The notes under the pieces: generated by a model
Databases searched by the model: none
What the model was told of the DNA's origin: nothing
Seen by the model: the letters and a program-made list of their open reading frames with translations, nothing else
Source: a virus
Virus record (IMG/VR): IMGVR_UViG_3300020171_000728
Location: 1-64,000 of that record
Direction: 5' to 3' (one strand)
DNA: 64,000 nucleotides
Translations under genes and position numbers: made by a program
Shown here: positions 35,969 to 63,862 of the stretch, piece by piece
Layout: every line of letters begins with the position of its first letter
Position numbering within the stretch: position 1 is the stretch's first letter

Positions 35969-35980
35969 AATTTCATATAT

Positions 35981-37128: not shown

Positions 37129-37147
37129 TGTAAATATTTATTATGAA

Positions 37148-38214: not shown

Positions 38215-38219
38215 ATATA

Positions 38220-38420: not shown

Positions 38421-38461
38421 TTTATTATATCTTGATTTTATTTTTTTTCAAATAATCATAA

Positions 38462-39713: not shown

Positions 39714-39721
39714 AATGGTTT

Positions 39722-43774: not shown

Positions 43775-44654
43775 ATTTTTTATCCTTTTTAATATCTTCC
43801 CTATAATTACTAGGGTCCCATGTTAATCTATTTTTTTCTATTTCTTTAATTGTTAATTTTTTATCATAAATTTCTATATCTTTTTCTGATAATCTTGGTA
43901 ATTTATGTTTTTTAAATAATGTTAAATTTCCTTGAGAAAATTTTTCTTTTTTTGTTTTTAAATATTCCCTTTCTATTGGTATAATCATTCCACAATATTT
44001 ACAATATCTATTTACTTGATCTTGAAAATCTTTAGGTTCTTTTTTCCACCAATCTTTTTCAACTGGATAACCACCGGGGCCATCTAAAATAGAATCTATC
44101 GCATATGCTATTTCACAGAAAAATGCACCTTTTGGAGAAATAGTTGGACACCATGTTTTTTGTACCCAACAATCATCAATAAGTTGTTTCCTATATTTTT
44201 TATCTTTTATAACATCTTTGATAGCTATTGTCATGGGTTGATGCCTACATGTGCCTTGTTGATAGTCATTATGTTCATTGTAAGCAGTAAAACTAAATGT
44301 TTGAGCAATTAATTCTTTATACTCCTCATATTTAATACCTCCTGTAGTAAATAACTCAAATTTCTTTTTAAGTCCCATTTCTTGTATAATCAAACATATT
44401 TCCTTAAATTGTGGATGTAATGTTGGTTCACCGCCAATAATTCCAATTCTACTTGGCCATCCTTCCAATGAATCAAGAGCTTTTTTAAAGAAATCTAAAT
44501 CCATAAAAAATCTTTGGTCTTGTCTAGTGTGTCTAATATACCGCGAGCAATATATACAATCCTTATTGCATATATTTGTTATATCAATTTGACACAACCA
44601 TGCTTTTTGAATTGGTTTCATATTATTTATTGTATAAATTATCAAAATATTCAA
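43767..44654 (-). CDS. radical SAM enzyme with SPASM-like C-terminal Cys cluster
   Basis: ITNICNKDCIYCSRY contains the CxxxCxxC radical SAM motif; GGEPTLHP glycine-rich SAM-binding motif; C-terminal C...C...CKYCG cluster. Confidence 0.6.
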   Translation of the reverse strand: MNILIIYTINNMKPIQKAWLCQIDITNICNKDCIYCSRYIRHTRQDQRFFMDLDFFKKALDSLEGWPSRIGIIGGEPTLHPQFKEICLIIQEMGLKKKFELFTTGGIKYEEYKELIAQTFSFTAYNEHNDYQQGTCRHQPMTIAIKDVIKDKKYRKQLIDDCWVQKTWCPTISPKGAFFCEIAYAIDSILDGPGGYPVEKDWWKKEPKDFQDQVNRYCKYCGMIIPIEREYLKTKKEKFSQGNLTLFKKHKLPRLSEKDIEIYDKKLTIKEIEKNRLTWDPSNYREDIKKDKKYE

Positions 44655-45279
44655 ATTCTTTTAAATTTAATATTTCTTTACGATTTATATCTAAATCCTT
44701 ATAAGTCATATTATCAATATCATTAATTGAATAATTAAGCATATCTTCTGGCTTACCTCTTGTAATAACTCCAACTCCATAATCTTCATTCACAACAAAA
44801 ATATTTAAATCATTTTGTGTCGACCTTAATCTAATAATAGTTTTCCACACATTACCACACCAAAGACCATTCCAACCATCCATTTTTTCTGCTTTTTCTA
44901 TTGGTATAGTCGCACTAACTTTTGTAGTAGGGCTACAATCATGTATAATAATTACACCACCATTATTTAGGTATTGTAAACAATTATTAAAATCTTTTAA
45001 TGATTGTTTATATGTATGCATTCCATCAATAAAAGCAACATCTATGCCATTCTTAATACAAACATCAGAATGTTCTTCAAAAAAAGTATCACTAGTCATC
45101 TTAAAAAACTGACTTGTTATATTATCACATAAATGAGCTATTTGAGACTTTGGATCTATAGCTATTTTTCTTTTTATTTTGATAGGAAAGAAAGTTATAC
45201 CACCTTCTACACCAACTTCTATGTATGTTTTTGCCTTTATTCTATCTATTACTGATTGTATAATATCTAATCTATTCAT
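44623..45279 (-). CDS. class I SAM-dependent methyltransferase (TylF/Methyltransf_24-like)
   Basis: YIEVGVEGG...VAFIDGMHTY...VIIIHDC. Confidence 0.5.
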   Translation of the reverse strand: MNRLDIIQSVIDRIKAKTYIEVGVEGGITFFPIKIKRKIAIDPKSQIAHLCDNITSQFFKMTSDTFFEEHSDVCIKNGIDVAFIDGMHTYKQSLKDFNNCLQYLNNGGVIIIHDCSPTTKVSATIPIEKAEKMDGWNGLWCGNVWKTIIRLRSTQNDLNIFVVNEDYGVGVITRGKPEDMLNYSINDIDNMTYKDLDINRKEILNLKEFEYFDNLYNK

Positions 45280-45332
45280 TTTGTTTTATGTTTTTAAATA
45301 TTGTATGTTTAGAAAATGTAATCATAATAATT

Positions 45333-46127
45333 TTATTTACAATATAAATTCATTCCTTCTTTATATTTTTTAAAATTCTCTAAAATTAAATAGTGAGATT
45401 CATCTTTCATTTTTCTAACATTTTGATATAAATACTTACCACTATTATTAATCAATTCCTTATAATCTTCTGGACAATTTGGGAATATTTCACAATGATA
45501 CATTTTAACACCACAATCAGAATGTCTGCAAATATATTTAAATTTAAAACCAGATAGTTCAACTCTTTCTTTGTAATCAAGGTCTTCCCATAAAAAAGGA
45601 CCATACTCTTCGTTCCAATAACCTATCTTATTAATAACTTTTCTACTAATCATCATAACACAACCAGTGAAGGTTTCACATAAACCTATTCCGTTTACAC
45701 TCTCCATAACTTTTCTTCTATTTGCCATAGTAACAAACCCCAAATCTAAAGATGTTAAAACATTTTCATATTTTATAAGCCATTCTTTATCTACAAAAAC
45801 AACATCATCATCTACTTTTATAACATAATCACCTGAACATTGTCTGAATATATGATTGAGATTTTTGGGATAATGATTATCTTTTAAATAATATACCTTT
45901 AATCCTTTAATTTCTTTTAAAAAGTTTAAGTCTTCTTCTTTGGGATAATACATAACATCTCTAAATCGTTCATCATCCACTACGCCCATATGTATATTAA
46001 CTATTCTATCACCAAAATTACATTTCAAAAGTGATTTTATACATTCTCTAAAAAATGGGTATCTTTGAATAGGTGCTACTATTACAATATCATGAGTTGT
46101 TTTTTTTAATGACATTTTATTTATCAA
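45333..46127 (-). CDS. GT-A-fold glycosyltransferase candidate
   Basis: HDIVIVAPIQRYPF...IKVDDDVVF (DxD) architecture. Confidence 0.4.
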   Translation of the reverse strand: MINKMSLKKTTHDIVIVAPIQRYPFFRECIKSLLKCNFGDRIVNIHMGVVDDERFRDVMYYPKEEDLNFLKEIKGLKVYYLKDNHYPKNLNHIFRQCSGDYVIKVDDDVVFVDKEWLIKYENVLTSLDLGFVTMANRRKVMESVNGIGLCETFTGCVMMISRKVINKIGYWNEEYGPFLWEDLDYKERVELSGFKFKYICRHSDCGVKMYHCEIFPNCPEDYKELINNSGKYLYQNVRKMKDESHYLILENFKKYKEGMNLYCK

Positions 46128-46836
46128 GAATAAGTTTCCATCCTCTTTTTATATATTCATCGAAAAGATTAAAACGTTCTTTATTGTGTTCTTTATTTAC
46201 AAGCCAGGATGCCACAGAATCACATCCATATTCCATTGCTTTTTTAGGGTCTGACCCCCATAAAGACTTATTTTTAATCGGATGTGGCGGAACATATGTC
46301 GGAATATTACCAAAAATCTGTGCATTAGCTGAAAGTTGTATATCTTCACCATTATTATGTTCAAGTATATCGTCAAACCACATATATTTTAGATTTTCTG
46401 TTCTTAAAAACCATGAATGTCCTCCAAAATCCACAAGAATTTCATTGTCTGATGGGTCTCCCCAACCTGGACAATGTTGTTTATTACTTTCTATATCAAC
46501 TATTCTACCATTTGTCACGCAAATACAATCGTGTTTTTTGATAGTATCAATGCAATTTAAATGCCAATCCTTACCAGGTACAGTGTCATCATCATAAAAT
46601 GCCACATATTCAGTATCCACCAATAGGCCAATAGCAAATCTTAAATGGAATTTCATATTCTTTGAAGAATATATTACATGGTCTATTTCCTTAGGATAAT
46701 TAAATTTTACTCCACCTTCATTTTGAACAACAATGATTTTTGAAGAAATAGTTTGATTCTTAATAGCTTCAAGTTGTTCTTGAAAATATTCTGGTCGTTT
46801 GTATGTTTGTAAAATAGTAGTTATATTTATTTTCAT
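46117..46836 (-). CDS. GT-A-fold glycosyltransferase candidate
   Basis: INITTILQTYKRPEY...AFYDDDT (DxD). Confidence 0.4.
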   Translation of the reverse strand: MKINITTILQTYKRPEYFQEQLEAIKNQTISSKIIVVQNEGGVKFNYPKEIDHVIYSSKNMKFHLRFAIGLLVDTEYVAFYDDDTVPGKDWHLNCIDTIKKHDCICVTNGRIVDIESNKQHCPGWGDPSDNEILVDFGGHSWFLRTENLKYMWFDDILEHNNGEDIQLSANAQIFGNIPTYVPPHPIKNKSLWGSDPKKAMEYGCDSVASWLVNKEHNKERFNLFDEYIKRGWKLILDK

Positions 46837-46838
46837 AT

Positions 46839-47807
46839 TTAATTCATATAAATATCATCCCATTTATATCCACTTTTTCCTGTTTCAATAACATTTAAAA
46901 GATTTTTAACTAGTGGCTTGTAATCAAAATATCTAAGAATAAATGCTTGCCCTCTTTTTGCAATCATTTTTCTTTCTCTTTCATTTTTAAGATAATATTG
47001 TATTTTTTCTTCCATTTCTTCAACTGTATCAAACCAATCTAAATGATAACCTCTTTTAAATATTTTGTCTATATTCCCAAAATTATGACACAAATAAAAT
47101 GTTCCACATGCCATATAGTTCCCTAGTCGGTCAGAAGACCATTTTACTGTATGGTTGAAACTATTAACACCAATTCCGATTTTTGTGCTATTTATCGCAT
47201 ATAAATATTCTGGGTCTCCTAGCCAACCAGACAAACCATACACCCTAGCATTTTTATATTTCAAAAGTTTATCAATCACTTCATTTCTCAAGTCATTATT
47301 CCCTGTAGATTTAGTCCCAGTCCATAAAATATCAGATTCCCATTCTGGCAAAGGTTTAATATCTTTATAATAATCAGAATCTGTAAAAGCGATTATAGAA
47401 CAAACTCCTTTCATATTAGGAAGTAAATGTTTTTTAAGATAATCTCCACCGAATGTTCCAAAAAAATAATCAATATGTTTATTATGTGCTAAGTCATGTT
47501 CTGTTGGTTCGATGCGAACATCTGCCGCCCATTTTACAAAAACTGCACCAGGGTGCATACTCCTTAACTGTTCTATCGTTTCTGGTAATATTCTCTCACA
47601 TTTTCCAAACCAAAAAATATCTGGCTTAATTTGCTCAGATATTTCTAATAATCTTTGATTAGGTTCAGGCTCAGCTCTGTAATCAATTCTTGTTACTTTA
47701 TATCCATTGGCTTCAAGCCCATTCGCAAAAACTTGGTCACCGCAATAAGGGCTTGCCTGATGAATATGTCTTGGGTTGTATACCCCGACTGTAATAGCTT
47801 TTTTCAT
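46839..47807 (-). CDS. glycosyltransferase-like protein (possibly GT-B/CgeB-like)
   Basis: 322 aa, Rossmann-like alternating pattern; weak. Confidence 0.3.
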   Translation of the reverse strand: MKKAITVGVYNPRHIHQASPYCGDQVFANGLEANGYKVTRIDYRAEPEPNQRLLEISEQIKPDIFWFGKCERILPETIEQLRSMHPGAVFVKWAADVRIEPTEHDLAHNKHIDYFFGTFGGDYLKKHLLPNMKGVCSIIAFTDSDYYKDIKPLPEWESDILWTGTKSTGNNDLRNEVIDKLLKYKNARVYGLSGWLGDPEYLYAINSTKIGIGVNSFNHTVKWSSDRLGNYMACGTFYLCHNFGNIDKIFKRGYHLDWFDTVEEMEEKIQYYLKNERERKMIAKRGQAFILRYFDYKPLVKNLLNVIETGKSGYKWDDIYMN

Positions 47808-49465: not shown

Positions 49466-50256
49466 TTCTTTAACACGGATTTTGATTTGTCCATATTGCC
49501 TATTGTCTCATGCCTGGACATTTCTGCCAGGACTCCGATTACTCGGAGGTTCAGATTATATCTTACACTCAAGTTTATATTCAGGATAAACCTTGAGTAT
49601 TTCTGCGCTTAATGGTGATTTACTTAACATTTGATACTTTAAATCAATTTTATAATACATTGATGGTGGAATAAATGGTTTAATAAGTTGAATAAACTTT
49701 AAACCCTCTTTTACTCCACAATATAAAGCAAATTGATTTCTAAGTTTGAAAATGTGCCATGAAATGTCCCATTTTCTTTCGAAATAATTTTGAATTAGAT
49801 TTTGTTCTTTCAGTGTGAATCCACCTGTATAAAGCAATATTTTTCTATCACCTTTTTTACCGTTTTTTCTATCACTTCTTGAAAATCTAAAACTTCCATC
49901 ATCCATATACCAAATAGCTAATGAGAGAGGAGTTAATTTGGAAAGTATTCTTTGGTCTATTTTCTTTTTACCAGATTTATAGAACACATTCCTGCGTAAA
50001 TGAGTAAAGTATGGATATACTGTAGTTCTAAACCCAACTTGTTCAAATCTCTTATCATTAAAGCCACAACCAACAGTTCTTTTAAATTGTTTAGTTTTCC
50101 ACAATTTTGAAACTATCGTATGTAGCCATTCAGAGTATTCTTTGTGCTGAATACACTGAATATGTTCGAGTCTTGAATTTCTATTTTTATTAGGTAGAGG
50201 ACTAAGATAACCATCACCCATTAAAATGCCATAGGCAATTTCCTCTTTCGTAAATC
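49466..50256 (-). other. candidate group I intron interrupting the major capsid gene
   Basis: About 790 bp between the two capsid ORF fragments, carrying a free-standing double-motif LAGLIDADG ORF; exact splice boundaries not determined. Confidence 0.4.
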
Positions 50257-50260
50257 TCAT
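49556..50260 (-). CDS. double-motif LAGLIDADG homing endonuclease (intron-encoded)
   Basis: Two LAGLIDADG motifs, ILMGDGYL and IWYMDDGSF; 234 aa; its start codon overlaps the stop of the capsid exon-1 ORF (ATATGA). Confidence 0.6.
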   Translation of the reverse strand: MRFTKEEIAYGILMGDGYLSPLPNKNRNSRLEHIQCIQHKEYSEWLHTIVSKLWKTKQFKRTVGCGFNDKRFEQVGFRTTVYPYFTHLRRNVFYKSGKKKIDQRILSKLTPLSLAIWYMDDGSFRFSRSDRKNGKKGDRKILLYTGGFTLKEQNLIQNYFERKWDISWHIFKLRNQFALYCGVKEGLKFIQLIKPFIPPSMYYKIDLKYQMLSKSPLSAEILKVYPEYKLECKI

Positions 50261-55591: not shown

Positions 55592-57244
55592 TTAATTTTT
55601 CCCTCTTTTGAATTTTTCATAAATATATTGATAACCAATATCAAAACAATTTTTTATAGTCTTAGGACTATCGTCTAATTTCAATATCTGTTTTTTAATT
55701 TCCATAGGTGTCACTGGAGCTGAAATACCCAAAGCATTAGAGGCTTGTATTTTTCCTTTTTCAAAAGCATCCAAAGCATCCAAAGCTTTAGTTATTTTTT
55801 TCTCTTTTTTCTTTTCTTCTTTAATCTTTACATCGTTGTTTTTTGGCTTTTCTTTCGGTTCTTCCTTTAATTTGTCTTTCGGTTCATCTTTTGGTTCGTC
55901 AATTTTTGGCTCTTCAGTATCAAGTTTTTTAATTACTGGTTTCTTTTCAGACCATTCTAATTCCATCTTCTTGCCAATTTTTTTAGTTACCTCTTCAATA
56001 AAGTCTGATGGGATTTCAATTTCTTTTCTACTAAGAATCTTATCAAATACACGTGCTAACAATATTTGCACTTCATCTGTTAAATTCTCAAGTTTAATTT
56101 GTGGATAAGATTGAGATGCAAAGTTCCAATCAATTAATGGTGCAACCGCATAAGTATTTAATGTTGTTTCCATTTGCCTCATAATAGAATGTATAGCCAT
56201 GCCAAGATATTTAGATTGTTCAGTTCCTTTCCCATATGGATAAGCATATTTTACTTGAGATACTATTTGTGTCAAAGCAGAAATAGACATCTGGTCATTA
56301 TGATGAGAAATCAATGGTAATACATCAAACCCTCCCGTAGCCCTATTTATTTCTAATTCTAATCCTTGTGGTAATGTGATTCTTGAATTAACTCCAATAG
56401 TATCTACTGTATTCTCGGCAGCAGTTCTTTCGGCAGAAGTAAGGTTCTGGTTAATTTTTAATATCTTTAATCCCAACGCTTCTATCTCAGCTTTTTTATG
56501 AGCGATATAATAAAGTTTATGTTTCTTGTCATAATGATAATAAGCAGCTTTTAAAATAGATTCTCCATAGAGCCAATGCTTTTCTTTTTGAAACGTATAT
56601 AAGATACACTTGTCAGGAGGAATATTTACATCAACAGTTCTTTTCCCAAATGAACATGATTGATGAGCCCCATTAAAACCACCATGCTCATCTGCCCTTA
56701 AAGAAATTGTTGAAACATCTCTTGGTGCTAATTTTCTCCAACCTATCTTCCCACTATATGGACCATCCTTAATAATATGAGCAACCTTTTCATATAATCT
56801 AAATCCCTCGAATATAGCCCTTGTCATATCTGCTACAATAAATTGCAACGGAGTAGTCATGCCACCCATATACTCTGGGCCCATAAATACTGTTTCTATA
56901 AATTCCTTTTCTCCTTTATCATTTTTACCAGGTATAATAGTAATTGGAGTCGATTGAATCGGTAAAGAAAGCAATCTAACAATTGCTTGTATCTCGCCAT
57001 CGTTCTGTTGCATTGAAATATAAGTTTCAGGACCTAAGTCATCAGGATTTTCTTCATCGTCATAAGAGCCAATAACGCCAGAGCGAGATAAGCCAAGTTC
57101 TTCCATGAACTCCTGAACCGTTAAAACCTTTTTTCTATCTAAGTCATCATCCCTAGGAATTTGTGGTTCTGGTTTTACATTTCTTGTGAGGAAATTATAC
57201 CATGCCATATAAATAAAAATAAACACAATTAGACAAAGGGTCAA
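55592..57244 (-). CDS. portal protein candidate (Mu gp29/DUF935-like)
   Basis: 550 aa at the head of the minus-strand head module, followed by protease/scaffold and capsid genes; acidic C-terminal tail (EPKDEPKDKLKEEPKEKPK). Confidence 0.45.
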   Translation of the reverse strand: MTLCLIVFIFIYMAWYNFLTRNVKPEPQIPRDDDLDRKKVLTVQEFMEELGLSRSGVIGSYDDEENPDDLGPETYISMQQNDGEIQAIVRLLSLPIQSTPITIIPGKNDKGEKEFIETVFMGPEYMGGMTTPLQFIVADMTRAIFEGFRLYEKVAHIIKDGPYSGKIGWRKLAPRDVSTISLRADEHGGFNGAHQSCSFGKRTVDVNIPPDKCILYTFQKEKHWLYGESILKAAYYHYDKKHKLYYIAHKKAEIEALGLKILKINQNLTSAERTAAENTVDTIGVNSRITLPQGLELEINRATGGFDVLPLISHHNDQMSISALTQIVSQVKYAYPYGKGTEQSKYLGMAIHSIMRQMETTLNTYAVAPLIDWNFASQSYPQIKLENLTDEVQILLARVFDKILSRKEIEIPSDFIEEVTKKIGKKMELEWSEKKPVIKKLDTEEPKIDEPKDEPKDKLKEEPKEKPKNNDVKIKEEKKKEKKITKALDALDAFEKGKIQASNALGISAPVTPMEIKKQILKLDDSPKTIKNCFDIGYQYIYEKFKRGKN

Positions 57245-57345
57245 ATATTTAATTTACTTGACTTTACTTAATTTGACTTGACAAGTAAATATTCAATGAT
57301 ATTATAACATTAATAACCAACAATAATCAATTAAATAAATTAAAT

Positions 57346-57540
57346 ATGTCATTAATCGAATGGAAAGCATATAGGAACATTAGAATCAAAGAGGATAAAG
57401 ATTCAATCAAATCAGTATCACAAAAACTTGGCATAGACATAATGCTCGCAAGAGAAATTCTTAATGGAACATACGACCATCAAACAAGAGAATGGGAAAG
57501 AATGGGAAAAAACAAATTAATAAAAGAAAAATTAATATAA
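57346..57540 (+). CDS. hypothetical small protein
   Basis: 64-aa ORF downstream of a TTGACA-N17-TATTAT promoter-like element. Confidence 0.3.
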   Translation: MSLIEWKAYRNIRIKEDKDSIKSVSQKLGIDIMLAREILNGTYDHQTREWERMGKNKLIKEKLI

Positions 57541-57607
57541 CTTATTTACAAACTCTATAAAATAGCCAACAAACTCTTTTATCGGGAAGATAAATAAGAA
57601 AACAACG

Positions 57608-57946
57608 ATGGATAAGACTCTCAACAAACAAGAAGTAATGTCAATGTTAAACAATAGCATTGATAGCGAGTCATTAAATATTAATGGCAATACAACAAGT
57701 GGAACAATATGCAGTCAAACAGTAGGGGGAAATAGTTCACAATTCTTTTCTGCTTGGGACTATTGGAATAATTATTACTATCCATATATATACCCATCAT
57801 ATCCAGTCTATATCCAAGAAAGAGCAAAAGATAGCAGCAAACAAGCATTTGAAATAGTTAAAATGCTTAATGATAAAAAGAAACTAAATATCAAAACAGT
57901 AAAAGACTTCATAGATATTATGGATTTGTTGATTAAAGTCCTATAA
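57608..57946 (+). CDS. hypothetical protein
   Basis: 112-aa ORF. Confidence 0.3.
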   Translation: MDKTLNKQEVMSMLNNSIDSESLNINGNTTSGTICSQTVGGNSSQFFSAWDYWNNYYYPYIYPSYPVYIQERAKDSSKQAFEIVKMLNDKKKLNIKTVKDFIDIMDLLIKVL

Positions 57947-58000
57947 TATTATAAAAGAAAGCAACAAAGTCGCTTTTGGCGTATTTGAGAAAATTTTTTC

Positions 58001-58136
58001 AGTAGAAAAATGACTTTGTCATTTTAGTAGAAAAATGACTTTGTCATTTTAGTAGAAAAATGACTTTGTCATTTTAGTAGAAAAATGACTTTGTCATTTT
58101 AGTAGAAAAATGACTTTGTCATTTTAGTAGAAAAAC
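58001..58136 (+). repeat. 5.5 tandem copies of a 25-bp iteron AGTAGAAAAATGACTTTGTCATTTT, each with an AAATGAC/GTCATTT inverted repeat
   Basis: Perfect direct repeats read directly in the sequence. Confidence 0.9.
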
Positions 58137-58476
58137 GGGATAAGGTTGAAAAACCATATTCTGTTTTTTTTGGCGTTTTTGTGAATATTCTCTTAGTGTG
58201 GAGGGAACTTGACAAAAAGGCAACTTCGTTGTTGAAAATAAGCGAGTTTGTGGAAATTTTCTCAGTGGGGAATGGGGGTAGAGGGGGAATTTTTTTTCTT
58301 TCTCTTTTTTTTTCTGATGTCGTTTGATAACAATAACAATCTCCGCAAGGTTTCACGCGGAACATAAAAAAACGCTTTTAGTTTCACCGATGTTTCACTA
58401 TAAAAAAAAAATATGTCAAGCGTTATCGGTTCGGGCTTGTTTAATATCCTATTGACAAAAAGATTTTTTCGTGTCT

Positions 58477-58485
58477 GTGGATAAC
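58477..58485 (-). promoter_or_regulatory. DnaA-box consensus (TTATCCACA)
   Basis: TGTGGATAA on the plus strand is the reverse complement of the 9-mer consensus. Confidence 0.4.
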
Positions 58486-58680
58486 TTCGTTTGACAACGC
58501 CAGTGCAAATGTTAAAATGTAAGCGGTAGGGATCGGGTCTGATATACTCGCTAACTATAGTACCTTGACAAAACAAAAAAAACAAGACGAAGCGATAAGT
58601 GATCAGAAAGTTAAAAAGCGAAGCAAGCGGACGGCAAGCGATCAGAAGTTTTTGATCTCGCTTGTTTCGTATAAAGTTTT

Positions 58681-58893
58681 ATGGATAAAAAAAAACACGG
58701 CACAAAAAAACAAAGGATCAGGTACTTAGAGTTAGAGAGAAAAGCAAGACAAGCGTACGCGGCAAGCATAATCAAAGGGACGGGGCTTGCAGATATAGCT
58801 TGTTTCCTTACTCATGAAGAAGAGACGGAGATCTTCAAGTTAGACGCGGCGATCTTTGGAGATCTGTTGCAATGGGAAAAGGGGGGGTTATGA
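58681..58893 (+). CDS. hypothetical protein in GC-richer segment
   Basis: 70-aa ORF. Confidence 0.25.
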   Translation: MDKKKHGTKKQRIRYLELERKARQAYAASIIKGTGLADIACFLTHEEETEIFKLDAAIFGDLLQWEKGGL

Positions 58894-59118
58894 TCTGGAG
58901 TTATATGGATCACAAGAGAAAAGAAAAGAGGCGGCGGCTGTTGCGGTATATCATAGCGGCGGGGGTTATGTTTTTGGCGGTGGAGGTGTTTTGTATGCTG
59001 TTGCGGTGGTCTGTTTGGCAGTATAACGCGATCATTAGATAGTTTTGATCGCTTGCCGTTTCGTCTTGTTTGTTATCTTATGCCGTCAGTCCGCTGATCC
59101 GCTGTTATCAGTTAAATA

Positions 59119-59544
59119 ATGGCTGTTATTATTATGAATAAAAAGACAAAAGAAGTCAAGACGGTTTCAAAAGTCAAGGCGGTAGAAGTCAGGGATTTAT
59201 CCCTTGCGGGGTTGCTCCGATCACACATAGGCGATTTCCAAAAAGAGCGAAAGGCATCGGCTTGCTTATACAACGGGAGCAGGAAGGCGCCAAGATGGGC
59301 GGGGTCTATCACGGGCGGGGGGGTTTTTACTCTTTCCCACTATAGTACCCCGATCCTAAAGATCGGGCTGTCCGATCAAAAAGCGGAGTTAGTTAAGTTG
59401 CCGGAGGCACGGCTTGCGAAAGGATATAGCAACGGGGATCTCCGCGGGATAAACACAACGCTGGAAGTTTTGAAGCCAAAGAACGCCGCGAAGGCGATCA
59501 AGCGGCAAGGGTACACCTCGTTCGTTTCAGTAAGTAGTTTATAA
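59119..59544 (+). CDS. hypothetical protein in GC-richer segment
   Basis: 141-aa ORF. Confidence 0.3.
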   Translation: MAVIIMNKKTKEVKTVSKVKAVEVRDLSLAGLLRSHIGDFQKERKASACLYNGSRKAPRWAGSITGGGVFTLSHYSTPILKIGLSDQKAELVKLPEARLAKGYSNGDLRGINTTLEVLKPKNAAKAIKRQGYTSFVSVSSL

Positions 59545-59679
59545 AAGTTTTGATCGTTATCTTTTATGATAACGGCGGCGGGTTGGCGGGATAAGATAAC
59601 AGAAGAGGGCAGAAGCCAAAAGCGATTATTATATGATCGCTTTTTAGGATTGGGGAAGTTTATGCAATCGCTGATTTTT

Positions 59680-59737
59680 GGTTTCACGGGGTTTCACGGT
59701 TTCACGGGGTTTCACGGTTTCACGAGGTTTCACGGGG
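59680..59737 (+). repeat. six tandem copies of GGTTTCACG(G) (9/10-nt units)
   Basis: Direct repeats read directly, followed by GGGGGCAGGGGGACAGG. Confidence 0.85.
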
Positions 59738-59980
59738 GCAGGGGGACAGGATTGCAAAACGCTAATTACTAATTACAATTAAGAATTAAAATTAGGAATT
59801 GAAATCAGTAATTAGAGGTGCAGAATTAAGATTTGTAATTAAGTAATTATGATTAAGAATTAAATTTTGCAATTGAAATGATAGATTAACAATTACTTGT
59901 TATCTGCCATTTACATTGCAAGAGGAAGCAATTAGTGCGATAAAAGCAATTGAATGCGTAAGCACATACAATTGAATGCA

Positions 59981-60021
59981 AAAGTTATCCACAGGCAAAA
60001 ATCGGTTTTTCGTGTTATAAT
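59981..60021 (+). promoter_or_regulatory. conserved 45-nt promoter-like element containing TTATCCACA (copy 1)
   Basis: AAAGTTATCCACAGGCAAAAATCGGTTTTTCGTGTTATAAT, followed by SD AAGGAGGTG and ATG 60047. Confidence 0.5.
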
Positions 60022-60046
60022 AAGAAAAAGAAAGGAGGTGAACATT

Positions 60047-60238
60047 ATGAGAAAACAATTGAATACATTAAATACAAAAGAAAACTTTATCAATGTATTA
60101 GTAGATTGTGATGGATATAGTGAAGAAGATGCAATTGACTTCGCTGAAGAATATCACAATGACCTTGAGAAGTGGATAATAGATCGTGGTGGCGATGAAA
60201 GAGCAATTGAAGAATGTAGAAAATTTTGCGGGATTTGA
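60047..60238 (+). CDS. hypothetical small protein
   Basis: Start at the internal Met of the listed ORF, 7 nt after SD AAGGAGGTG. Confidence 0.4.
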   Translation: MRKQLNTLNTKENFINVLVDCDGYSEEDAIDFAEEYHNDLEKWIIDRGGDERAIEECRKFCGI

Positions 60239-60415
60239 CTTCTGACATTGCATCTAAGCAATTGGATGCAATAATGAGAAGTTAATTGAAACAAAAATAT
60301 TCGGAATATTTCGTTTCTAACAGCACATTGACAATTGAATACTAATCACCTCATCCGATCAGTTGCCAGATCAATTGTTATTAATTTAATTGGCGGCTGA
60401 AGAAAGGACAATTAT

Positions 60416-60706
60416 ATGTTTGATGAAGTTTTCAATGACATGGCGAAGTCCGCTGCAATGGAGATTGGATTGACAGAGGACGAAGCCGAGCGAGAAGTTG
60501 ACGAATTCAATTGTACTCATGATAGTGGTAGGTTTTGCGATGATTGCGGAGTGCAATTGAATGACGGAGTTAATTGTGCGGATTTTCTTTCGGATTACTG
60601 CAATGAGTGTTGGGATAAATTTCTTAAGGAGTATTTTCCCAATGTTAAAAAGGAATTAAAGCAGGAGACATTGAATAAGGAAATGAATGAAGAATTGGCG
60701 AAATAA
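60416..60706 (+). CDS. hypothetical acidic Cys-containing protein
   Basis: 96-aa ORF. Confidence 0.35.
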   Translation: MFDEVFNDMAKSAAMEIGLTEDEAEREVDEFNCTHDSGRFCDDCGVQLNDGVNCADFLSDYCNECWDKFLKEYFPNVKKELKQETLNKEMNEELAK

Positions 60707-61157
60707 ATAACAATAGCAATTGATCAGATGAGGGGATTATGACGGATTGCCTTGTTTAGCTGATTGTTGAGCCAATTGTTGACATATTCAATTGCGAATA
60801 TGTAATTGAATATGGGAGAATAAGTGCACCAATGTGCACACCGACAATTAGAGAAAGCAATTAAATGAAAAAAACAAAAATTAAAAAGAAAAAACCAATT
60901 AATGAATTATATCATAGAATTGGCAGGTATTTAGAAAAAAAGCAATTGGGATTCTGTTTTCTTCCCAATGGAGAATTTGTAAGTAGAGAGCAATGCGAAA
61001 AATACGGATACAAATTCAATTAGAAAACGACTTCGTTGTTTTCATAAAATATTTCTCGACAATTGGCTTAACAAGGTAATCAATTGAAAATCAAGCAAGC
61101 AATTGCAGATTTTAAATGCGTGTGATTGCGAGTGCACAATTGGTGCACACGATGAGA

Positions 61158-61209
61158 AGCAATTAGATAAAGCAATTAAGTGCAGCAATTAAGAGTAGCA
61201 ATTATACTC
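61158..61209 (+). repeat. four tandem 13-bp units each starting AGCAATTA
   Basis: AGCAATTAGATAA AGCAATTAAGTGC AGCAATTAAGAGT AGCAATTATACTC. Confidence 0.8.
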
Positions 61210-61738
61210 TTGGATTTTCTAATATCCATCCGACAACGAAAGAAGCAATGTCTTTTACTTCGACATGATTCAATCTAAACCATTCGCCTCTTACTCTTTG
61301 ATTTTTGTAATTGTTGTGCAAATAGCGTTCTAATGATTGTGGGTCAGGTAACATTGTGCTAAATATCAATCGTATTCTAAATGGATTTCCTGTTTGCATT
61401 GCGGAAATACGGCTTCTTACATCTGTAGCAAAACCAATTTTATAATAATCACTTTTACATTGAATAATATAAATAAAATCTCTTTTTAATTCAGAATGTC
61501 CAATTTTCAATTGATTTCTTCTATAAGCAATTCGGCAAGCATCATTGCAGAATAAGCGGGCTTTCTTTCCAATTATTTGTTTTATTTCTTTATTACATTG
61601 TAAACATTTACTTACGGTTAAATTGCTTTTCTTTGGAACGGTAAGACGATTGTATTTGATACGGCAATTAGTTGAACAAAACTTTGATGTTGCCCTAATT
61701 GGTTCGTATTCTTTCCCACATTGTAAACATTTATTCAT
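61202..61738 (-). CDS. GIY-YIG (T5orf172/MUG113-type) nuclease domain protein with two N-terminal zinc ribbons
   Basis: CLQCGK...CSTNC and CLQCNK...CNDAC; then FIYIIQCKSDYYKIGFATDVRSRISAMQTGNP (GIY-YIG T5orf172 signature). Confidence 0.55.
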   Translation of the reverse strand: MNKCLQCGKEYEPIRATSKFCSTNCRIKYNRLTVPKKSNLTVSKCLQCNKEIKQIIGKKARLFCNDACRIAYRRNQLKIGHSELKRDFIYIIQCKSDYYKIGFATDVRSRISAMQTGNPFRIRLIFSTMLPDPQSLERYLHNNYKNQRVRGEWFRLNHVEVKDIASFVVGWILENPRV

Positions 61739-61858
61739 TGATTTTCACCACCTTTCTTTTATAAATATTACCAAATGGATGAGCAGATGTCAAGGGTTTT
61801 TCAATTGATTTACATTGGTTTCGTGAAACATAGAGCCAAATAATTCAATTGGTGGCAA

Positions 61859-61898
61859 AAGTTATCCACTTTAGATTTTTCGGTTTTTATGATAGAAT
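61859..61898 (+). promoter_or_regulatory. diverged copy 2 of the 45-nt promoter-like element (TTATCCACT, then TTATACACA)
   Basis: AAAGTTATCCACTTTAGATTTTTCGGTTTTTATGATAGAAT...GGTTATACACAGG. Confidence 0.4.
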
Positions 61899-62206
61899 AA
61901 GGTTATACACAGGAAGCAAAAAATGAGCAGATAGAAGCACATTGACAACAAAACAAATAAATAATTGGCAGGTAGGCAATCGGCATGTAATAGTGTGTAA
62001 TTGCCATCGGGGGAGTATAGAGATTACAGTAATCAATTGGCTTGGTTAAGCCAATCGTTTAAATCCGTACTCTAAAATCAATTAAAAATCCCACCAAAAA
62101 GGGTGAATTGCGAGTGAATTGTGAGTTTTTCGCAATTATCGGGGCAAATCAATGGCATAGTTAAGCCATTGGTATCCCAAATCGTGGGGGTTTATCAAGC
62201 CAACAA

Positions 62207-62809
62207 TTGAATGGCATAGATAAGCCAATTGAAAAGTTGCTAATCTGTAGAAAAACTATGTTAATTAAAATTTTTAAGGAGTTCGGGCGACAATCGGAGC
62301 TGAAGTCATTGTGTAGGAGTGAGGTTAAAGATTTTCTCAATGACAATCGGTTACAGGATGGCACAGTTAAGCGAGTAATTGAATTGCTTGGGTCTAATCT
62401 TCCGATGATTACCATAAAAAAGAAGCCATACAGAGCCAAAAACGGGGATTTGATGGCGTTTCTGGCGGGATATGGGGCGGGGGGTTGTGAGGGCGACAAA
62501 CTGGGGGGGACGGGGGCAGAGGGCGACAAGATGGAGGGCGGAAGCACAAGCGGAAGCGACAAGATAGCCAAAGCAAGAGCCAAAGCAAGGGAGCTGGAAA
62601 GGGACGGGGAAGATGAAGAAGGAGTTATCATTCAATGTAAGTTCTTACGGAAGAGTTACATTGGGGAGGGGATGATTATTAAAATGGGCGGCAAAATCAA
62701 GGAATTGAAAGGGGAAGGAAGAAGTTTTGAACAGACATTGCTTGCGTTAAAGCGGGGTTGTAGCATTACTATACGATATGTTGATGATTACAATTGGGGG
62801 GTTTTATAA
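62207..62809 (+). CDS. hypothetical protein with Gly/Asp-rich central tract
   Basis: 200-aa ORF; central purine-rich DNA encodes GAGGCEGDKLGGTGAEGDKMEGG. Confidence 0.3.
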   Translation: MNGIDKPIEKLLICRKTMLIKIFKEFGRQSELKSLCRSEVKDFLNDNRLQDGTVKRVIELLGSNLPMITIKKKPYRAKNGDLMAFLAGYGAGGCEGDKLGGTGAEGDKMEGGSTSGSDKIAKARAKARELERDGEDEEGVIIQCKFLRKSYIGEGMIIKMGGKIKELKGEGRSFEQTLLALKRGCSITIRYVDDYNWGVL

Positions 62810-62995
62810 GATGGCGGGCAATTATAATGATTATTACCTGCCAATTATTTATTTGTAAATCTGTGGGGGCTAATTGATATTATTCACTTTTAGATTTTAA
62901 TTGAATGTGGGTGGATATTTTGTCAATTGACCAAATGGGGGAATTGTGGTGTTTGTGTTTTTTGTGTAATTAGTTCTTAATACCTAGTAAAATCA

Positions 62996-63253
62996 ATGAA
63001 ATACGATATTAAAGTAAACCAATTGGATACTCATATCAGAGTTTACACATTGGAAGATGGTAAATTGCCAGAGAAAATAAAGGTTGATTTATATTTGTCT
63101 AATAATCAATGGAGAGTTAATTGGTCGGCTTGTGGAGACCAAGACATTGAATTTGCCGATGAATTTATGGCAGTAATGAAGAAAGCAATTAAGATAATGA
63201 TAGAATTGAATTTAGAGTTATGGGATAAAGCAATCAAAGATGCGGGGTTATAA
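62996..63253 (+). CDS. hypothetical small protein
   Basis: 85-aa ORF. Confidence 0.3.
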   Translation: MKYDIKVNQLDTHIRVYTLEDGKLPEKIKVDLYLSNNQWRVNWSACGDQDIEFADEFMAVMKKAIKIMIELNLELWDKAIKDAGL

Positions 63254-63299
63254 TTAGTTTATGCATTGCCAATCATAAAATTATACTAGGTTAATTGAT

Positions 63300-63515
63300 A
63301 TGGTTGGCAAACATAAGGGAATTATTGATGGGCGGCAATCGGATGATAATCGGGTGATAATTGGGCGGCAATTAGTTCCTTGCAAAAAGCAAACAACGGA
63401 AGGAAGTATGTCGAAGCATTTTCAATGGTGGAAATGTGGGGATGACTGTCCCCGACCTTCTCAATGCATTAAATGCTATGCGATGCAATGTTGTTTGCTT
63501 TTTGGGGGGAGTTAA
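63300..63515 (+). CDS. small Cys-rich protein
   Basis: 71 aa with CGDDCPRPSQCIKCYAMQCC. Confidence 0.25.
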   Translation: MVGKHKGIIDGRQSDDNRVIIGRQLVPCKKQTTEGSMSKHFQWWKCGDDCPRPSQCIKCYAMQCCLLFGGS

Positions 63516-63779
63516 TTGGGCGGGCGAGTGCACATTGGTGCACATCAAATTAAGAGTTTAATTAGTGAGTTAGGCACTTTTACAATTATGAAAAAATATA
63601 ATTTACTAATTGCAATTTATGAAAAAGTATTTTGCAATGTATGTAATTCAGAAAAAACTAAAAAAACATATAAACCATTGCAAAGTAGTAATGGCGAAAT
63701 ATACAAATTAACAAAAGAACAATGTTTAAAATACATTGATACTTACTTAATAAACGATTATAAAATTGTAGAAATATAA
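63516..63779 (+). CDS. hypothetical small protein with CxxC
   Basis: 87-aa ORF. Confidence 0.3.
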   Translation: MGGRVHIGAHQIKSLISELGTFTIMKKYNLLIAIYEKVFCNVCNSEKTKKTYKPLQSSNGEIYKLTKEQCLKYIDTYLINDYKIVEI

Positions 63780-63862
63780 ATCAATTACCATTTAGAATAG
63801 ATAATTGTATATCCTAACAATACATTTATCTATTCAACATTGGTGCACATCAATTGATACAA

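What the first reader, a model, noticed from the sequence alone, without database searches (positions are those of the whole stretch)
57960..60050. Origin-like regulatory hub with iterons, DnaA-box consensus elements, a GTTTCACG tandem array, a GC-richer segment and an AT-rich tract
Seen: 5.5 perfect 25-bp direct repeats (58001-58136), each containing the palindrome AAATGAC..GTCATTT. TTATCCACA 9-mers lie at 58477 (-) and 59985 (+). Six tandem GGTTTCACG(G) units lie at 59680-59737, with further GTTTCAC copies at 58349 and 58378. A markedly more GC-rich stretch runs about 58650-59750, and an AATTAA-rich AT tract lies at 59760-59890. Several TTGACA-N17-TAAAAT-type promoter consensus elements are present (for example 58491-58524). 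This sits at the switch from the minus-strand structural block to the plus-strand small-gene block. Inference: iterons plus DnaA boxes plus an AT-rich tract is the classic architecture of a theta-type origin; alternatively it is a dense early-promoter and operator region.
Basis: partly seen in the sequence, partly recalled or inferred. Interest (0 to 1): 0.6.

Follow-up and report, generated by a model that had tools for sequence, protein, structure and literature searches.

The report
Phage early-gene control hub, origin unproven
This 2-kb stretch is a real, conserved control region at the start of the early genes of an uncultivated phage family. The supposed origin "iterons" are a lineage-specific repeat and the DnaA boxes are promoter parts, so a replication origin is possible here but not shown.

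Summary
Seven related lineages change what the elements mean.

- **25-bp array:** it exists only in the window lineage. It is a tandem amplification of the spot where the closest relative has a single terminator hairpin.
- **TTATCCACA boxes:** both belong to an exact 12-mer, AGTTATCCACAG, that sits beside early promoters. The 12-mer recurs at 63865 and four more times in the closest relative.
- **GC-rich segment:** it is an immediate-early operon of three small genes. Two adjacent long-range RNA helices bracket its mRNA; 35 of 59 pairs show compensatory changes.
- **GTTTCACG arrays:** all seven lineages with the operon's basic protein ORF3 carry the octamer array just after the operon terminator. 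Four of the seven also carry copies upstream of its promoter.
- **AT tract:** it is built of AATT-core motifs and opens a domain of at least 4 kb where CAATTG is over 20-fold enriched.

My best reading is an early transcription and processing hub (0.42). An iteron-type origin built on the GTTTCACG arrays, AATT tract and DnaA box stays a serious, non-exclusive rival (0.33).

The parts
57974..58003 (+). Copy 1 of a conserved ~30-nt element (GGCGtaTTTGaGAAAAttTTTTCAGT). Copies 2 and 3 lie at 58168-58197 and 58237-58266. Relatives carry two copies flanking their terminator.
   Evidence: the repeat finder family D4. Homologous sequence seen in L001, L021, L028 and L039.
57997..58135 (.). 25-bp x 5.6 perfect tandem array. 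Each unit is the end of the conserved element (TTTTAGTAGAAA) plus a palindrome with 8-bp arms. It is specific to the window lineage and sits where L001 has one terminator hairpin.
   Evidence: TRF. L001 matches 57978-58008 at 90% and then shows a single hairpin plus T-run. No match to the unit in viral or metagenome contigs.
58241..58319 (+). Most widely conserved non-coding block: GCGAGTTTGTGGAAATTTTCTCAGTGGGG, then a purine run, then a 25-30-nt polypyrimidine run. It resembles a terminator hairpin with G-U pairs. Function unknown.
   Evidence: Present in L001, L021, L028, L039, L017 and L009. Terminator-like hit at 58280-58305.
58350..58398 (+). Upstream cluster of three GTTTCAC sites, same orientation as the downstream array.
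   Evidence: Also upstream of the promoter in L001, L028 and L038; replaced by other repeats in L021 and L041; absent in L039.
58475..58486 (-). AGTTATCCACAG, a DnaA-box consensus within a 12-mer, 6 nt upstream of the -35 of the operon promoter. It is the inverted partner of the copy at 59983-59994.
   Evidence: (I22). An exact TTATCCACA box sits next to the equivalent promoter in L001, L017, L028, L038 and L039; L041 has a one-mismatch copy (TTATGCACA) and L021 has TTATCCCAG, readable as a one-base deletion.
58491..58518 (+). Near-consensus sigma-70-type promoter TTGACA-16-TAAAAT with TG upstream. It drives the immediate-early operon.
   Evidence: 11 of 12. Equivalent promoters read in L021, L028, L038 and L039.
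58580..59071 (+). RNA helix 1: arms 58580-58608 and 59043-59071 (28 pairs) enclosing ORF1 and ORF2.
   Evidence: (I6).
58681..58893 (+). ORF1, 70 aa, helical, no Shine-Dalgarno. Weakly conserved in L001; L021 has an unrelated 33-aa ORF at this position.
58872..59042 (+). ORF2, a small single-pass membrane peptide. By eye, comparable hydrophobic peptides occur in L001, L021, L028 and L039 (a looser one in L017), and L021, L028 and L039 share a W-x-x-F-Q-A/V-V-M motif.
59072..59600 (+). RNA helix 2, directly abutting helix 1. Arms 59072-59094 and 59578-59600, extended by 59100-59139 and 59537-59577. It encloses ORF3 and partly covers its start region.
   Evidence: (I12).
59134..59544 (+). ORF3, a 136-aa basic protein (pI about 10) with a lysine-rich N-terminus. 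It belongs to a family with no Pfam or PHROG assignment and no significant fold match in PDB, and it is under purifying selection.
59618..59645 (+). Intrinsic-terminator hairpin (AAAAGCGAT...ATCGCTTTTT) ending the operon. An equivalent hairpin plus T-run was read in L001, L021, L028, L039 and L041.
   Evidence: Read.
58531..59635 (.). GATC cluster: 21 sites in 1.1 kb, while GATC looks under-represented in the rest of the window. It is specific to the window lineage.
   Evidence: dinucleotide shuffles 3.6 +/- 1.8, maximum 9; relatives have 0-4. Maintained or increased in the variant allele L165.
59680..59737 (+). Array of six GGTTTCACG(G) units at 8-10-bp spacing. It is the conserved short-repeat array of the family, a candidate protein-binding site or iteron.
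   Evidence: L001 has 3, L021 has 6, L028, L038 and L039 have 4 each (one degenerate in L038), L041 has 2, always 15-35 nt after the terminator. No arrays in portal relatives without an ORF3 homologue, only scattered single copies.
59757..59895 (.). AATT-core tract (AATTA, AATTAAG, CAATTG about every 7-13 bp), 20% GC.
   Evidence: A homologous tract occurs in the relatives.
59870..63851 (.). CAATTG-dense domain over the early genes, continuing past the window end. 29 sites against 1.3 expected.
59983..60046 (+). Early-promoter cassette: AGTTATCCACAG (59983-59994), T-rich spacer, extended -10 TGtTATAAT (60013-60021), AGGAGG (60033-60038), then the ATG of the first early gene at 60047.
   Evidence: The same cassette lies at 63865 and, box positions in L001 coordinates, at 6675, 5390 and 3692, with a looser copy at 2630. 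It also occurs in L022/L023 and L028.

Best explanation
The region is the control hub at the head of the early-gene block of an uncultivated tailed-phage family. It is mainly a transcription and RNA-processing unit.

Shown:
- A near-consensus host-type promoter (58491-58518), with a DnaA-box-like 12-mer just upstream, heads a three-gene operon (ORF1, membrane peptide ORF2, basic protein ORF3).
- The operon RNA can fold into two adjacent long helices of about 28 bp and about 50 bp. Each brackets coding sequence, and the operon ends at an intrinsic-terminator hairpin.
- An array of GTTTCACG sites follows, then an AATT-core tract, then a second promoter cassette carrying the same 12-mer, which heads the next early gene.
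- The block to the right includes an ArdA anti-restriction gene just past the window end.
- The 25-bp array is a lineage-specific tandem amplification of the hairpin region that ends the upstream two-gene operon.

Inferred:
- The 12-mer binds host DnaA or a factor of the same specificity, and so modulates early promoters.
- The long helices are RNase III-type processing or stability elements. Because helix 2 covers the ORF3 start region, they may also gate its translation.
- The GTTTCACG sites flanking the operon are bound by a product of the module, most likely ORF3, for autoregulation or shut-off.

The hub may also contain the origin of replication (see the first rival). The two readings do not exclude each other.
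For: - **Synteny.** L001 shows the same order of parts but lacks the 25-bp array. L021, L028, L038, L039 and L041 share the architecture.
- **Promoter cassette.** The TTATCCACA cassette is repeated before early genes at window 59985 and 63867, at four sites in L001, and in L022/L023 and L028. An exact box sits 6-19 nt upstream of the -35 of the operon promoter, in either orientation, in six lineages.
- **RNA helices.** They occur in all seven lineages with different sequences. The tally is 390 Watson-Crick, 36 G-U and 9 A-C pairs, so they form on the plus-strand RNA. RNAalifold finds 59 pairs, 34 of them compensatory. In the pair count, 92.8% of cells are paired and 35 pairs change on both sides; 0 of 500 shuffles reach this, and slid controls give 4-8.
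- **ORF3 is coding.** L028 against L039 gives 54 synonymous and 20 non-synonymous codon changes.
- **Terminator position.** A hairpin plus T-run lies between ORF3 and the array in the window, L001, L021, L028, L039 and L041.
- **Array goes with ORF3.** GTTTCAC arrays occur only in lineages with ORF3. In L001 all six copies read GTTTCACA, both upstream and downstream, which fits one binding protein for both clusters.
- **Early block.** ArdA lies in L162, and strong AGGAGG ribosome sites occur only behind the cassettes.
Against: - No binding, transcript or cleavage data exist; every functional step is inferred.
- The downstream array lies about 250 bp upstream of the next -10 element, which is far for a simple operator.
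- This reading does not explain the AATT tract, the CAATTG domain or the GATC cluster.
- In 64 of about 70 kb the only recognisable replication gene is dnaN, although not every ORF was scanned. An origin that recruits host factors must therefore exist somewhere, and this hub is the best candidate seen.
Confidence: 0.42

Rival explanations
1. The hub contains an iteron-type, host-DnaA-assisted origin of replication.

- The GTTTCACG units, not the 25-bp repeats, are the iterons.
- ORF3 is the initiator encoded next to them and regulates itself through the upstream GTTTCAC sites.
- The AATT tract is the unwinding element.
- The DnaA box at 59985 helps to load the host helicase.

This would resemble P1 oriR (incC-repA-incA), pSC101 ori, or P4 ori and crr.
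For: - The order is ORF3, terminator, octamer array, a 20%-GC tract, then a DnaA box within 90 bp.
- The octamer array after the terminator is in all seven ORF3 lineages and the AATT tract in all read that far; an AGTTATCCACAG box after the tract is seen only in the window and L001.
- A second cluster of the same motif lies upstream of the operon promoter in four of the seven lineages.
- The motif co-occurs with ORF3.
- dnaN is the only recognisable replication gene in the window plus about 2.2 kb of flanks.
- The window lineage adds a cluster of 21 GATC sites. From my own knowledge this recalls oriC and P1 oriR.
- The cumulative GC-skew minimum lies at about 57-58 kb.
Against: - The skew minimum coincides with the transcription strand switch, so it says little.
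- The boxes are single, more than 1 kb apart, and recur at other early promoters.
- No tandem pair of boxes is present, and I saw no repeated GAT trinucleotide run next to either box when reading the sequence.
- Unit spacing varies from 8 to 18 bp between lineages with no helical phasing.
- The AT tract is only in the least stable 1-5% of window positions depending on window size (about 1-2% at 60-100 nt), and it is made of conserved motifs rather than simply AT-rich DNA.
- ORF3 shows no Rep-like winged-helix fold.
- The GATC cluster is not conserved in relatives and stops before the AT tract.
Confidence: 0.33
2. The hub is a host-factor docking or DNA-entry control region at the leading end of the genome, not an origin.

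Host chromosome proteins would bind the first-entering early region: DnaA at TTATCCACA, and possibly ParB-like proteins at GTTTCACG, which equals 8 contiguous bases of the parS consensus. Binding would tether the region, time its expression or protect it. This is what Davison proposed for the T5 injection-stop region. It also parallels phi29, where parS and Spo0A sites are used by the phage. The hub might lie in or beside a terminal repeat.
For: - The T5 first-step-transfer region has untranslated repeat regions with direct repeats, palindromes and DnaA boxes in distant inverted repeats. The author argues these are not for replication (bioRxiv 10.1101/866236).
- The phi29 genome carries parS sites and Spo0A boxes that serve the phage (PMC2731898).
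- Here a 16-nt inverted pair containing the box lies 1.5 kb apart (I22).
- The block to the right holds small early genes including ArdA.
- The best viral structural neighbours of ORF3 include TreP, which from my own knowledge is a terminal-repeat-encoded protein of Staphylococcus phage A3R (E 4e-3, TM 0.50/0.61).
- The CAATTG domain starts at the hub and thins with distance.
Against: - Contig ends of relatives do not coincide at any homologous position.
- A full parS with at most 3 mismatches occurs once in the hub (a second lies at 9874), which is not significant and is not conserved.
- The T5 boxes come in pairs 3 bp apart, which is not seen here.
- The TreP match is weak.
- No read data were available to map termini.
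Confidence: 0.12
3. The 25-bp array on its own is a functional protein-binding array, such as a centromere of the F sopC type (tandem repeats, each with an inverted repeat) or an operator bank for a lineage-specific dimeric protein. It would then be more than an amplified terminator remnant.
For: - It has five perfect 19-bp palindromes at exact 25-bp spacing.
- Other lineages carry different short arrays at the same place: 10-bp GATATA-type repeats, about ten copies in L028 and L038, eight in L021, three to four in L039.
- By eye the upstream 64-aa protein (57346-57540) looks like a helix-turn-helix protein, with no significant family match.
Against: - L001 has a 70%-identical copy of that 64-aa protein but no array.
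- No partition ATPase was found among the window ORFs scanned.
- The palindrome occurs nowhere else in the window.
- Perfect identity of the copies indicates a very recent expansion.
Confidence: 0.1

Closest known systems
P1 plasmid-prophage replicon (oriR/incC - repA - incA) and pSC101 ori (own knowledge)
   Same: Short direct repeats lie on both sides of a small gene. A DnaA box sits next to an AT-rich stretch next to the repeats. The window lineage has GATC clustering. Replication would depend on the host replisome.
   Different: - The units are 8 bp rather than 17-22 bp, and their spacing is irregular.
- The candidate initiator is 136 aa with no winged-helix match.
- The gene is transcribed toward, not away from, the main array.
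- The box recurs at unrelated early promoters.
Satellite phage P4 ori and crr with octamer type I iterons TGTTCACC (own knowledge)
   Same: An octamer of similar sequence is repeated in two clusters separated by kilobases.
   Different: In P4 the octamers are bound by the large alpha primase-helicase. No such protein is encoded in the window. This comparison was not tested here.
Phage T7 left end: promoters A1-A3, RNase III sites, gene 0.3 anti-restriction (own knowledge)
   Same: Strong host-type promoters head the early block. Double-stranded RNA elements separate the early cistrons. An anti-restriction gene lies among the first genes. Arrays of short repeats lie nearby.
   Different: - T7 RNase III sites are local hairpins between genes. 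Here two helices are formed by sequences 430-500 nt apart and enclose whole ORFs, more like the stems that flank rRNAs in rRNA operons.
- T7 promoters carry no DnaA boxes.
Phage T5 injection-stop (iss) repeat regions (bioRxiv 10.1101/866236)
   Same: A non-coding hub in the early region holds direct repeats, palindromes and consensus DnaA boxes inside distant inverted repeats. It is conserved across relatives more strongly than the neighbouring ORFs.
   Different: - T5 has about eight boxes in pairs 3 bp apart, inside a 10-kb terminal repeat.
- Here the boxes are single and tied to promoters.
- A terminal-repeat location is unknown for this phage.
- The T5 mechanism is itself only a proposal.
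phi29 use of host Spo0J/parS and Spo0A boxes (PMC2731898)
   Same: A virulent phage genome carries consensus sites for host chromosome-origin proteins next to its early promoters.
   Different: The host factors differ, and only half-site resemblance to parS is seen here. No functional data exist.

Membership tests
Iteron-type theta origin (P1 oriR / pSC101 / F oriS kind) | Tandem iterons conserved among related replicons | tested here: inconclusive
   The 25-bp array is absent from L001 and every other relative, so it fails. GTTTCACG arrays are conserved in all seven ORF3 lineages, but the units are 8 bp at variable spacing of 8-18 bp.
Iteron-type theta origin (P1 oriR / pSC101 / F oriS kind) | Adjacent gene for a Rep initiator (winged-helix fold) that binds the iterons | tested here: not met
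Iteron-type theta origin (P1 oriR / pSC101 / F oriS kind) | DnaA box next to an AT-rich unwinding element | tested here: inconclusive
   The box at 59985 lies 90 bp from the 20%-GC tract. The same 12-mer also heads another early gene at 63865 and at further sites in L001 and other relatives. The tract is not among the 12 least stable segments of the window.
Iteron-type theta origin (P1 oriR / pSC101 / F oriS kind) | Replication actually starts there | not testable with these tools
   No read-depth data or replication assay was available. GC skew is confounded by the strand switch.
Chromosomal oriC-type origin | Cluster of several DnaA boxes within a few hundred bp, with a basal unwinding element of tandem boxes plus DnaA-trios | tested here: not met
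   The boxes are single, at 58476, 59985 and 63867, each more than 1 kb from the next. No tandem pair exists, and I saw no trio repeats in the adjacent sequence.
Host-type (sigma-70-like) early promoter region | -35 and -10 elements at correct spacing, placed before early genes and conserved in relatives | tested here: met
   58491-58518 scores 11 of 12 with TG. An extended -10 lies at 60013-60021, followed by a ribosome site and ATG. The cassette recurs before early genes in the window, L001, L022/L023, L028 and L017. Transcription starts were not measured.
RNase III-type processing helices in phage early mRNA or rRNA operons | Double-stranded RNA of about 20 bp or more, supported by covariation, on the transcribed strand | tested here: met
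   Helices of 22-28 bp and 37-55 bp occur in seven lineages. 35 of 59 pairs have changes on both sides, and 0 of 500 shuffles reach this. G-U outnumbers A-C 36 to 9. Caveat: the arms were taken from each sequence's own predicted fold.
RNase III-type processing helices in phage early mRNA or rRNA operons | Cleavage by RNase III | not testable with these tools
   No RNA-end data. No Rfam family matches the region.
T5-type injection-stop repeat region | Paired DnaA boxes 3 bp apart in distant inverted repeats inside a long terminal repeat | tested here: not met
   A 16-nt inverted pair 1.5 kb apart holds one box per arm (I22). No paired boxes are present. Terminal-repeat status is unknown, and contig ends give no sign of termini.
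ParB/parS centromere | 16-bp palindromic parS and a ParB gene | tested here: not met
   Only direct repeats of a half-site-like octamer are present. One 13-of-16 match at 58349-58364 is not significant. No ParB-like domain was found among the ORFs scanned; not all ORFs were scanned.

The most novel reading that the evidence does not exclude
The hub nucleates a sequence-marked domain over the phage's first-expressed anti-defence genes.

A module-encoded protein of a new fold (ORF3), or a hijacked host origin-region protein, would load at the GTTTCACG array and AATT tract. It would then occupy the CAATTG sites, which are over 20-fold enriched across at least 4 kb of early genes in every lineage that has the module. 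Occupancy would control replication start, silencing or protection of that domain. The long RNA helices that bracket ORFs would form a second, previously undescribed layer of early-gene control.
Probability: 0.15. Interest if true: 0.8.

Novelty: new variant of a known kind. Interest (0 to 1): 0.55.

Why it matters
This phage family comes from Antarctic saline-lake and marine-sediment metagenomes. It has no cultured member and no identifiable polymerase, helicase or primase in the 64-kb window. How it starts its early programme and its replication is therefore unknown.

The hub gives concrete, testable handles:
- a DnaA-box promoter cassette that would couple early transcription or initiation to a host replication protein;
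- a conserved octamer array paired with a new small basic protein;
- whole ORFs enclosed by long RNA helices with strong covariation;
- a hexamer-marked early domain.

I know of no described phage system that combines these four features. The case also shows that "iterons plus DnaA boxes plus an AT tract" read from one sequence can mislead.

Tried and rejected
**Searches that found nothing**
- Nucleotide search of INPHARED phages with 57000-61000: no match. The portal gives only distant hits of 33% identity or less.
- The 25-bp unit in viral and metagenome contigs: no match.
- Conserved helix sequences in viral contigs: only L001's own contig.
- Genome collection scans for ORF3 and for the portal: nothing, so no prophage or host clue.
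- dnaN search in viral contigs, meant to reach relatives' replication modules: nothing.
- Look-up of P0001's 70-kb contig: failed. Only about 0.8 kb to the right and 1.5 kb to the left of the window were recovered (L162, L164).
- Rfam at gathering and at permissive thresholds: nothing in the hub.

**Searches that were uninformative**
- GTTTCACG-N0-10-GTTTCACG in metagenome contigs returned 120 unrelated, GC-rich hits with no ORF3 homologue. That scan was wasted.

**Ideas tested and dropped**
- Exceptional instability of the AT tract: rejected.
- Genome termini at the hub, judged from contig ends: no common end point.
- A full parS site: not significant.
- The phage methyltransferase as the CAATTG enzyme: its closest solved relatives are a DpnA-annotated adenine methyltransferase and CcrM, which says nothing about specificity.
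- Stop-codon reassignment, suspected from in-frame-looking TGA in plus-strand repeat consensus sequences: rejected, because the 1919-aa ORF on the minus strand is intact under the standard code.
- A mobile element bounded by the 16-nt inverted repeat: rejected, because the repeat is the promoter cassette in two orientations, and relatives carry the box in either orientation.


Full report
**1. What the window is**

The window is part of a low-GC (32%) tailed-phage genome.
- A late block on the minus strand runs from a CHAP-domain lysin (9514-10074) to the portal gene (55592-57244). It includes tail genes, a protease/capsid fusion and a large set of glycosyltransferases.
- A plus-strand block starts at 57346, runs off the window end and resumes at 1-9118. 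It contains a LAGLIDADG endonuclease, a Ro60-like protein, an SPFH protein, TnpB, a DNA methyltransferase and the clamp DnaN.
- DnaN is the only recognisable replication protein found.
- No close relative exists among deposited phages or in bacterial genomes.
- Nineteen IMG/VR loci carry related portals. Most ORF3-bearing contigs come from JGI and ENA metagenome assemblies whose environment the tools did not report; from my own knowledge of the JGI sample identifiers several are Antarctic saline lakes, and L039's record name marks it as a marine-sediment metagenome.

**2.

All listed elements are present and non-random; details are in the observation check. There are two corrections.
- The divergent strand switch is at 57244/57346, about 0.7 kb left of the finding.
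- The scan finds only one near-consensus -35/-10 promoter inside it. A second promoter, with an extended -10, is seen by reading the sequence.

**3. The 25-bp array is not conserved**

- L001 (portal 79% identical) is syntenic from window 57000 to 60743.
- At the array's position L001 reads TTTTCAGTAGAAAG, then one hairpin (ACAAGGTA...TACCTTGT), then a T-run. That is an ordinary terminator for the two upstream plus-strand genes.
- The window unit is that same left flank (TTTTAGTAGAAA) plus a short palindrome, copied 5.6 times without a mismatch.
- Other lineages carry unrelated 10-bp GATATA-type arrays before a terminator at the same place: about ten copies in L028 and L038, eight in L021, three to four in L039.
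- More distant portal relatives have yet other short arrays 1.7-3 kb from the portal.
- The place is therefore a hot spot for short arrays, but the 25-bp unit is a recent, lineage-specific expansion and cannot be a core origin element.

**4. The DnaA boxes are promoter parts**

- Both boxes sit in the exact 12-mer AGTTATCCACAG. A third exact copy lies at 63865.
- The plus-strand copies belong to a cassette: AATTGAA-n-CAAAAG, then TTATCCACAGG, then a T-rich spacer, then TGtTATAAT, then AGGAGGT and ATG.
- The cassette precedes early genes in the window at 59985 and 63867. With box positions in L001 coordinates, it lies at 6675, 5390 and 3692, with a looser copy at 2630. It also occurs in L022/L023 and L028.
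- The minus-strand copy at 58476 lies 6 nt from the -35 of the operon promoter.
- An exact TTATCCACA box lies 6-19 nt upstream of the equivalent promoter, in either orientation, in L001, L017, L028, L038 and L039. L041 has a one-mismatch copy (TTATGCACA) and L021 has TTATCCCAG, readable as a one-base deletion; L011 has a one-mismatch copy.
- The 16-nt "inverted repeat" (I22) is simply this element in two orientations.
- A conserved site that is independent of orientation and distance, next to promoters, fits a monomer-binding factor such as DnaA acting on transcription. It does not form the box cluster expected of a DnaA-unwound origin.

**5. The GC-rich segment is an immediate-early operon inside a structured RNA**

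- The promoter at 58491-58518 is followed by three genes: ORF1 (58681-58893), ORF2 (58872-59042, a membrane peptide) and ORF3 (59134-59544).
- ORF3 has ten homologues and is basic (pI about 10). Its substitutions are mostly synonymous, for example 54 synonymous against 20 non-synonymous codon changes between L028 and L039.
- ORF3 has no Pfam or PHROG family, no PDB sequence match and no convincing fold match.
- The operon RNA folds with two adjacent long-range helices:
  - helix 1: 58580-58608 with 59043-59071, around ORF1 and ORF2;
  - helix 2: 59072-59139 with 59537-59600, around ORF3.
- The same two helices appear in all seven lineages with different sequences.
  - 34-35 of 59 pairs carry compensatory changes, 92.8% of cells are paired, 0 of 500 shuffles reach this, and slid controls give 4-8.
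  - G-U pairs outnumber A-C oppositions 36 to 9, so the structure belongs to the plus-strand transcript.
  - Caveat: the arms were picked from each sequence's own predicted fold.
- A hairpin plus T-run ends the operon at 59618-59645 and was read at the equivalent place in L001, L021, L028, L039 and L041.
- High GC is peculiar to the window lineage: 45% against 27-35% in relatives.
- So is a cluster of 21 GATC sites. Shuffles give 3.6 +/- 1.8, and relatives have 0-4.
- The cluster persists in L165, a co-occurring variant. Its 141-nt left flank is identical and its roughly 250-nt right flank differs at only a handful of positions, while its ORF3 protein is 90% identical.
- Helices of this length are the substrate type of RNase III. 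That they are cut, and that helix 2 gates ORF3 translation, is my inference.

**6. The conserved short repeat is GTTTCACG**

- An array follows the terminator by 15-35 nt in every ORF3 lineage. Copy numbers are 6 in the window, 3 in L001, 6 in L021, 4 each in L028, L038 (one degenerate) and L039, and 2 in L041. Spacing ranges from 8 to 18 bp.
- A second cluster in the same orientation lies upstream of the operon promoter in the window, L001, L028 and L038.
- In L001 all six copies read GTTTCACA.
- Portal relatives without ORF3 lack such arrays.
- This pattern fits one sequence-specific protein, plausibly ORF3, binding on both sides of its own operon.
- From my own knowledge, the octamer equals eight contiguous bases of the parS consensus and resembles the P4 type I iteron. 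A full parS is not significantly present.

**7. The AT tract and what follows it**

- The tract is 20% GC, yet only in the least stable 1-5% of window positions depending on window size (about 1-2% at 60-100 nt), and it is not among the window's 12 least stable segments.
- It is made of AATT-core motifs and marks the left edge of a domain dense in CAATTG.
  - The window has 29 sites in 59870-63851 against 1.3 expected (Poisson 6e-29). There are none in 57300-59740 and 0.31 per kb in the late block.
  - Density is 12-14 per kb over the first 1.5 kb and then falls.
  - Sites lie between genes and in all three reading frames, so selection acts on the DNA.
  - The same 5-11 per kb is seen in L001, L023 and L028, but not in L006 and L010, which lack the module.
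- The block includes ArdA just beyond the window.

**8. Weighing the readings**

- The transcription and processing reading rests on direct sequence and comparative evidence for the promoters, cassette, operon, helices and terminator.
- It leaves the array, the tract, the CAATTG domain and the GATC cluster without a specific role.
- The origin reading explains four things economically: the gene-array-AT tract-DnaA box order, the second array at the promoter, the lack of phage replication genes, and the GATC cluster.
- Against the origin reading: the boxes are tied to promoters, the octamer spacing is irregular, ORF3 shows no Rep-like fold, the tract is not unusually unstable, and the GC-skew minimum is confounded by the strand switch.
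- A third reading treats the hub as a host-factor docking or DNA-entry region. It has precedents in T5 (10.1101/866236) and phi29 (PMC2731898). It has no direct support here, and contig ends give no sign of termini.
- I put these at 0.42, 0.33 and 0.12. The first two are compatible with each other.

**9. Verdict**

A revised origin case remains open. The hub is a new variant of known kinds of early control region. Two features seem unusual to me: whole ORFs bracketed by covarying long RNA helices, and the hexamer-marked early domain.

Noticed in passing
window 59870-63851 (continues in L162); L001 1-6960; L023 3400-7459; L028 2700-6553: CAATTG is 20-30-fold enriched (5-11 per kb against about 0.3) across the early-gene block, starting at the AATT tract. 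Sites lie in all reading frames and between genes, and density falls with distance from the hub. The enrichment is absent from L006 and L010, relatives without the ORF3 module. No binding factor or methyltransferase could be assigned.
   Followed up: partly
window 58531-59635: 21 GATC sites lie in 1.1 kb (shuffles 3.6 +/- 1.8). The rest of the window has 49 in about 63 kb, against roughly 190 window-wide by my rough composition estimate. The cluster is specific to the window lineage. In the variant allele L165 I count eight GATC in ORF3 against six in the window.
   Followed up: partly
L165 1-800 against window 58987-59790: A co-occurring variant has a 141-nt left flank identical to the window and a roughly 250-nt right flank that differs at only a handful of positions (helix arms, terminator, GTTTCACG array, start of the AATT tract). 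Its ORF3 protein is only 90% identical. The ORF looks like an exchangeable cassette between conserved flanks.
   Followed up: partly
window 58241-59319 block at 58241-58319; L001, L021, L028, L039, L017, L009: An ~80-nt block (GCGAGTTTGTGGAAATTTTCTCAGTGGGG, a purine run, then a polypyrimidine run) is the most widely conserved non-coding sequence of the family. L017 expands the pyrimidine run to about 250 nt. Its function is unknown.
   Followed up: partly
window 981-2590: A Ro60/TROVE homologue (981-2513) is followed within 5 nt by a tRNA-like gene (2518-2590, called tRNA-Met). This may be a phage Ro plus Y-RNA-like pair.
   Followed up: no
window 4569-5714: A TnpB (IS605 OrfB / Cas12f-like) gene lies inside the phage's plus-strand block. 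Its guide RNA region was not examined.
   Followed up: no
window 24158-29917 (-), 24164-24269: A 1919-aa ORF is filled with 12-nt-period repeats and shows positive GC skew although it is on the minus strand. A perfect 27-bp x 3.9 tandem repeat lies at its 3' end.
   Followed up: no
window about 29900-47800 (-): At least ten glycosyltransferase-domain proteins and a radical-SAM protein sit inside the late block, next to the giant repeat protein. This suggests extensive virion glycosylation.
   Followed up: no
window 61202-61738 (-); L028 4218-4673 (-): A T5orf172/MUG113 endonuclease-like gene lies on the opposite strand inside the early block. An HNH_3 gene lies on the opposite strand at a similar position in the early block of the L028 lineage, which suggests a homing-endonuclease hot spot. 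A LAGLIDADG_1 endonuclease lies at 189-677 and a LAGLIDADG_2-family gene at 49556-50260.
   Followed up: no
whole window; 60033, 63900: Most of the 38 gene starts inspected lack a Shine-Dalgarno sequence and have A-rich leaders instead. AGGAGG occurs only three times, and the two I located (60033 and about 63900) follow TTATCCACA promoter cassettes.
   Followed up: partly
L162 3863-4144 (about 230 nt past the window end): An ArdA anti-restriction gene lies in the early block.
   Followed up: no
L009 and L017, early operons (window orientation 2900-4000 and 2100-3300): More distant relatives carry long local hairpins between early genes, like T7 RNase III sites, instead of ORF-bracketing helices.
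   Followed up: no
window 57253-57282: Three tandem copies of TTTACTTGAC overlap the 57278 promoter in the divergent region between the portal and the first plus-strand gene. In L021/L022, L002 and L003 this region carries a TTATCCACA box instead.
   Followed up: no
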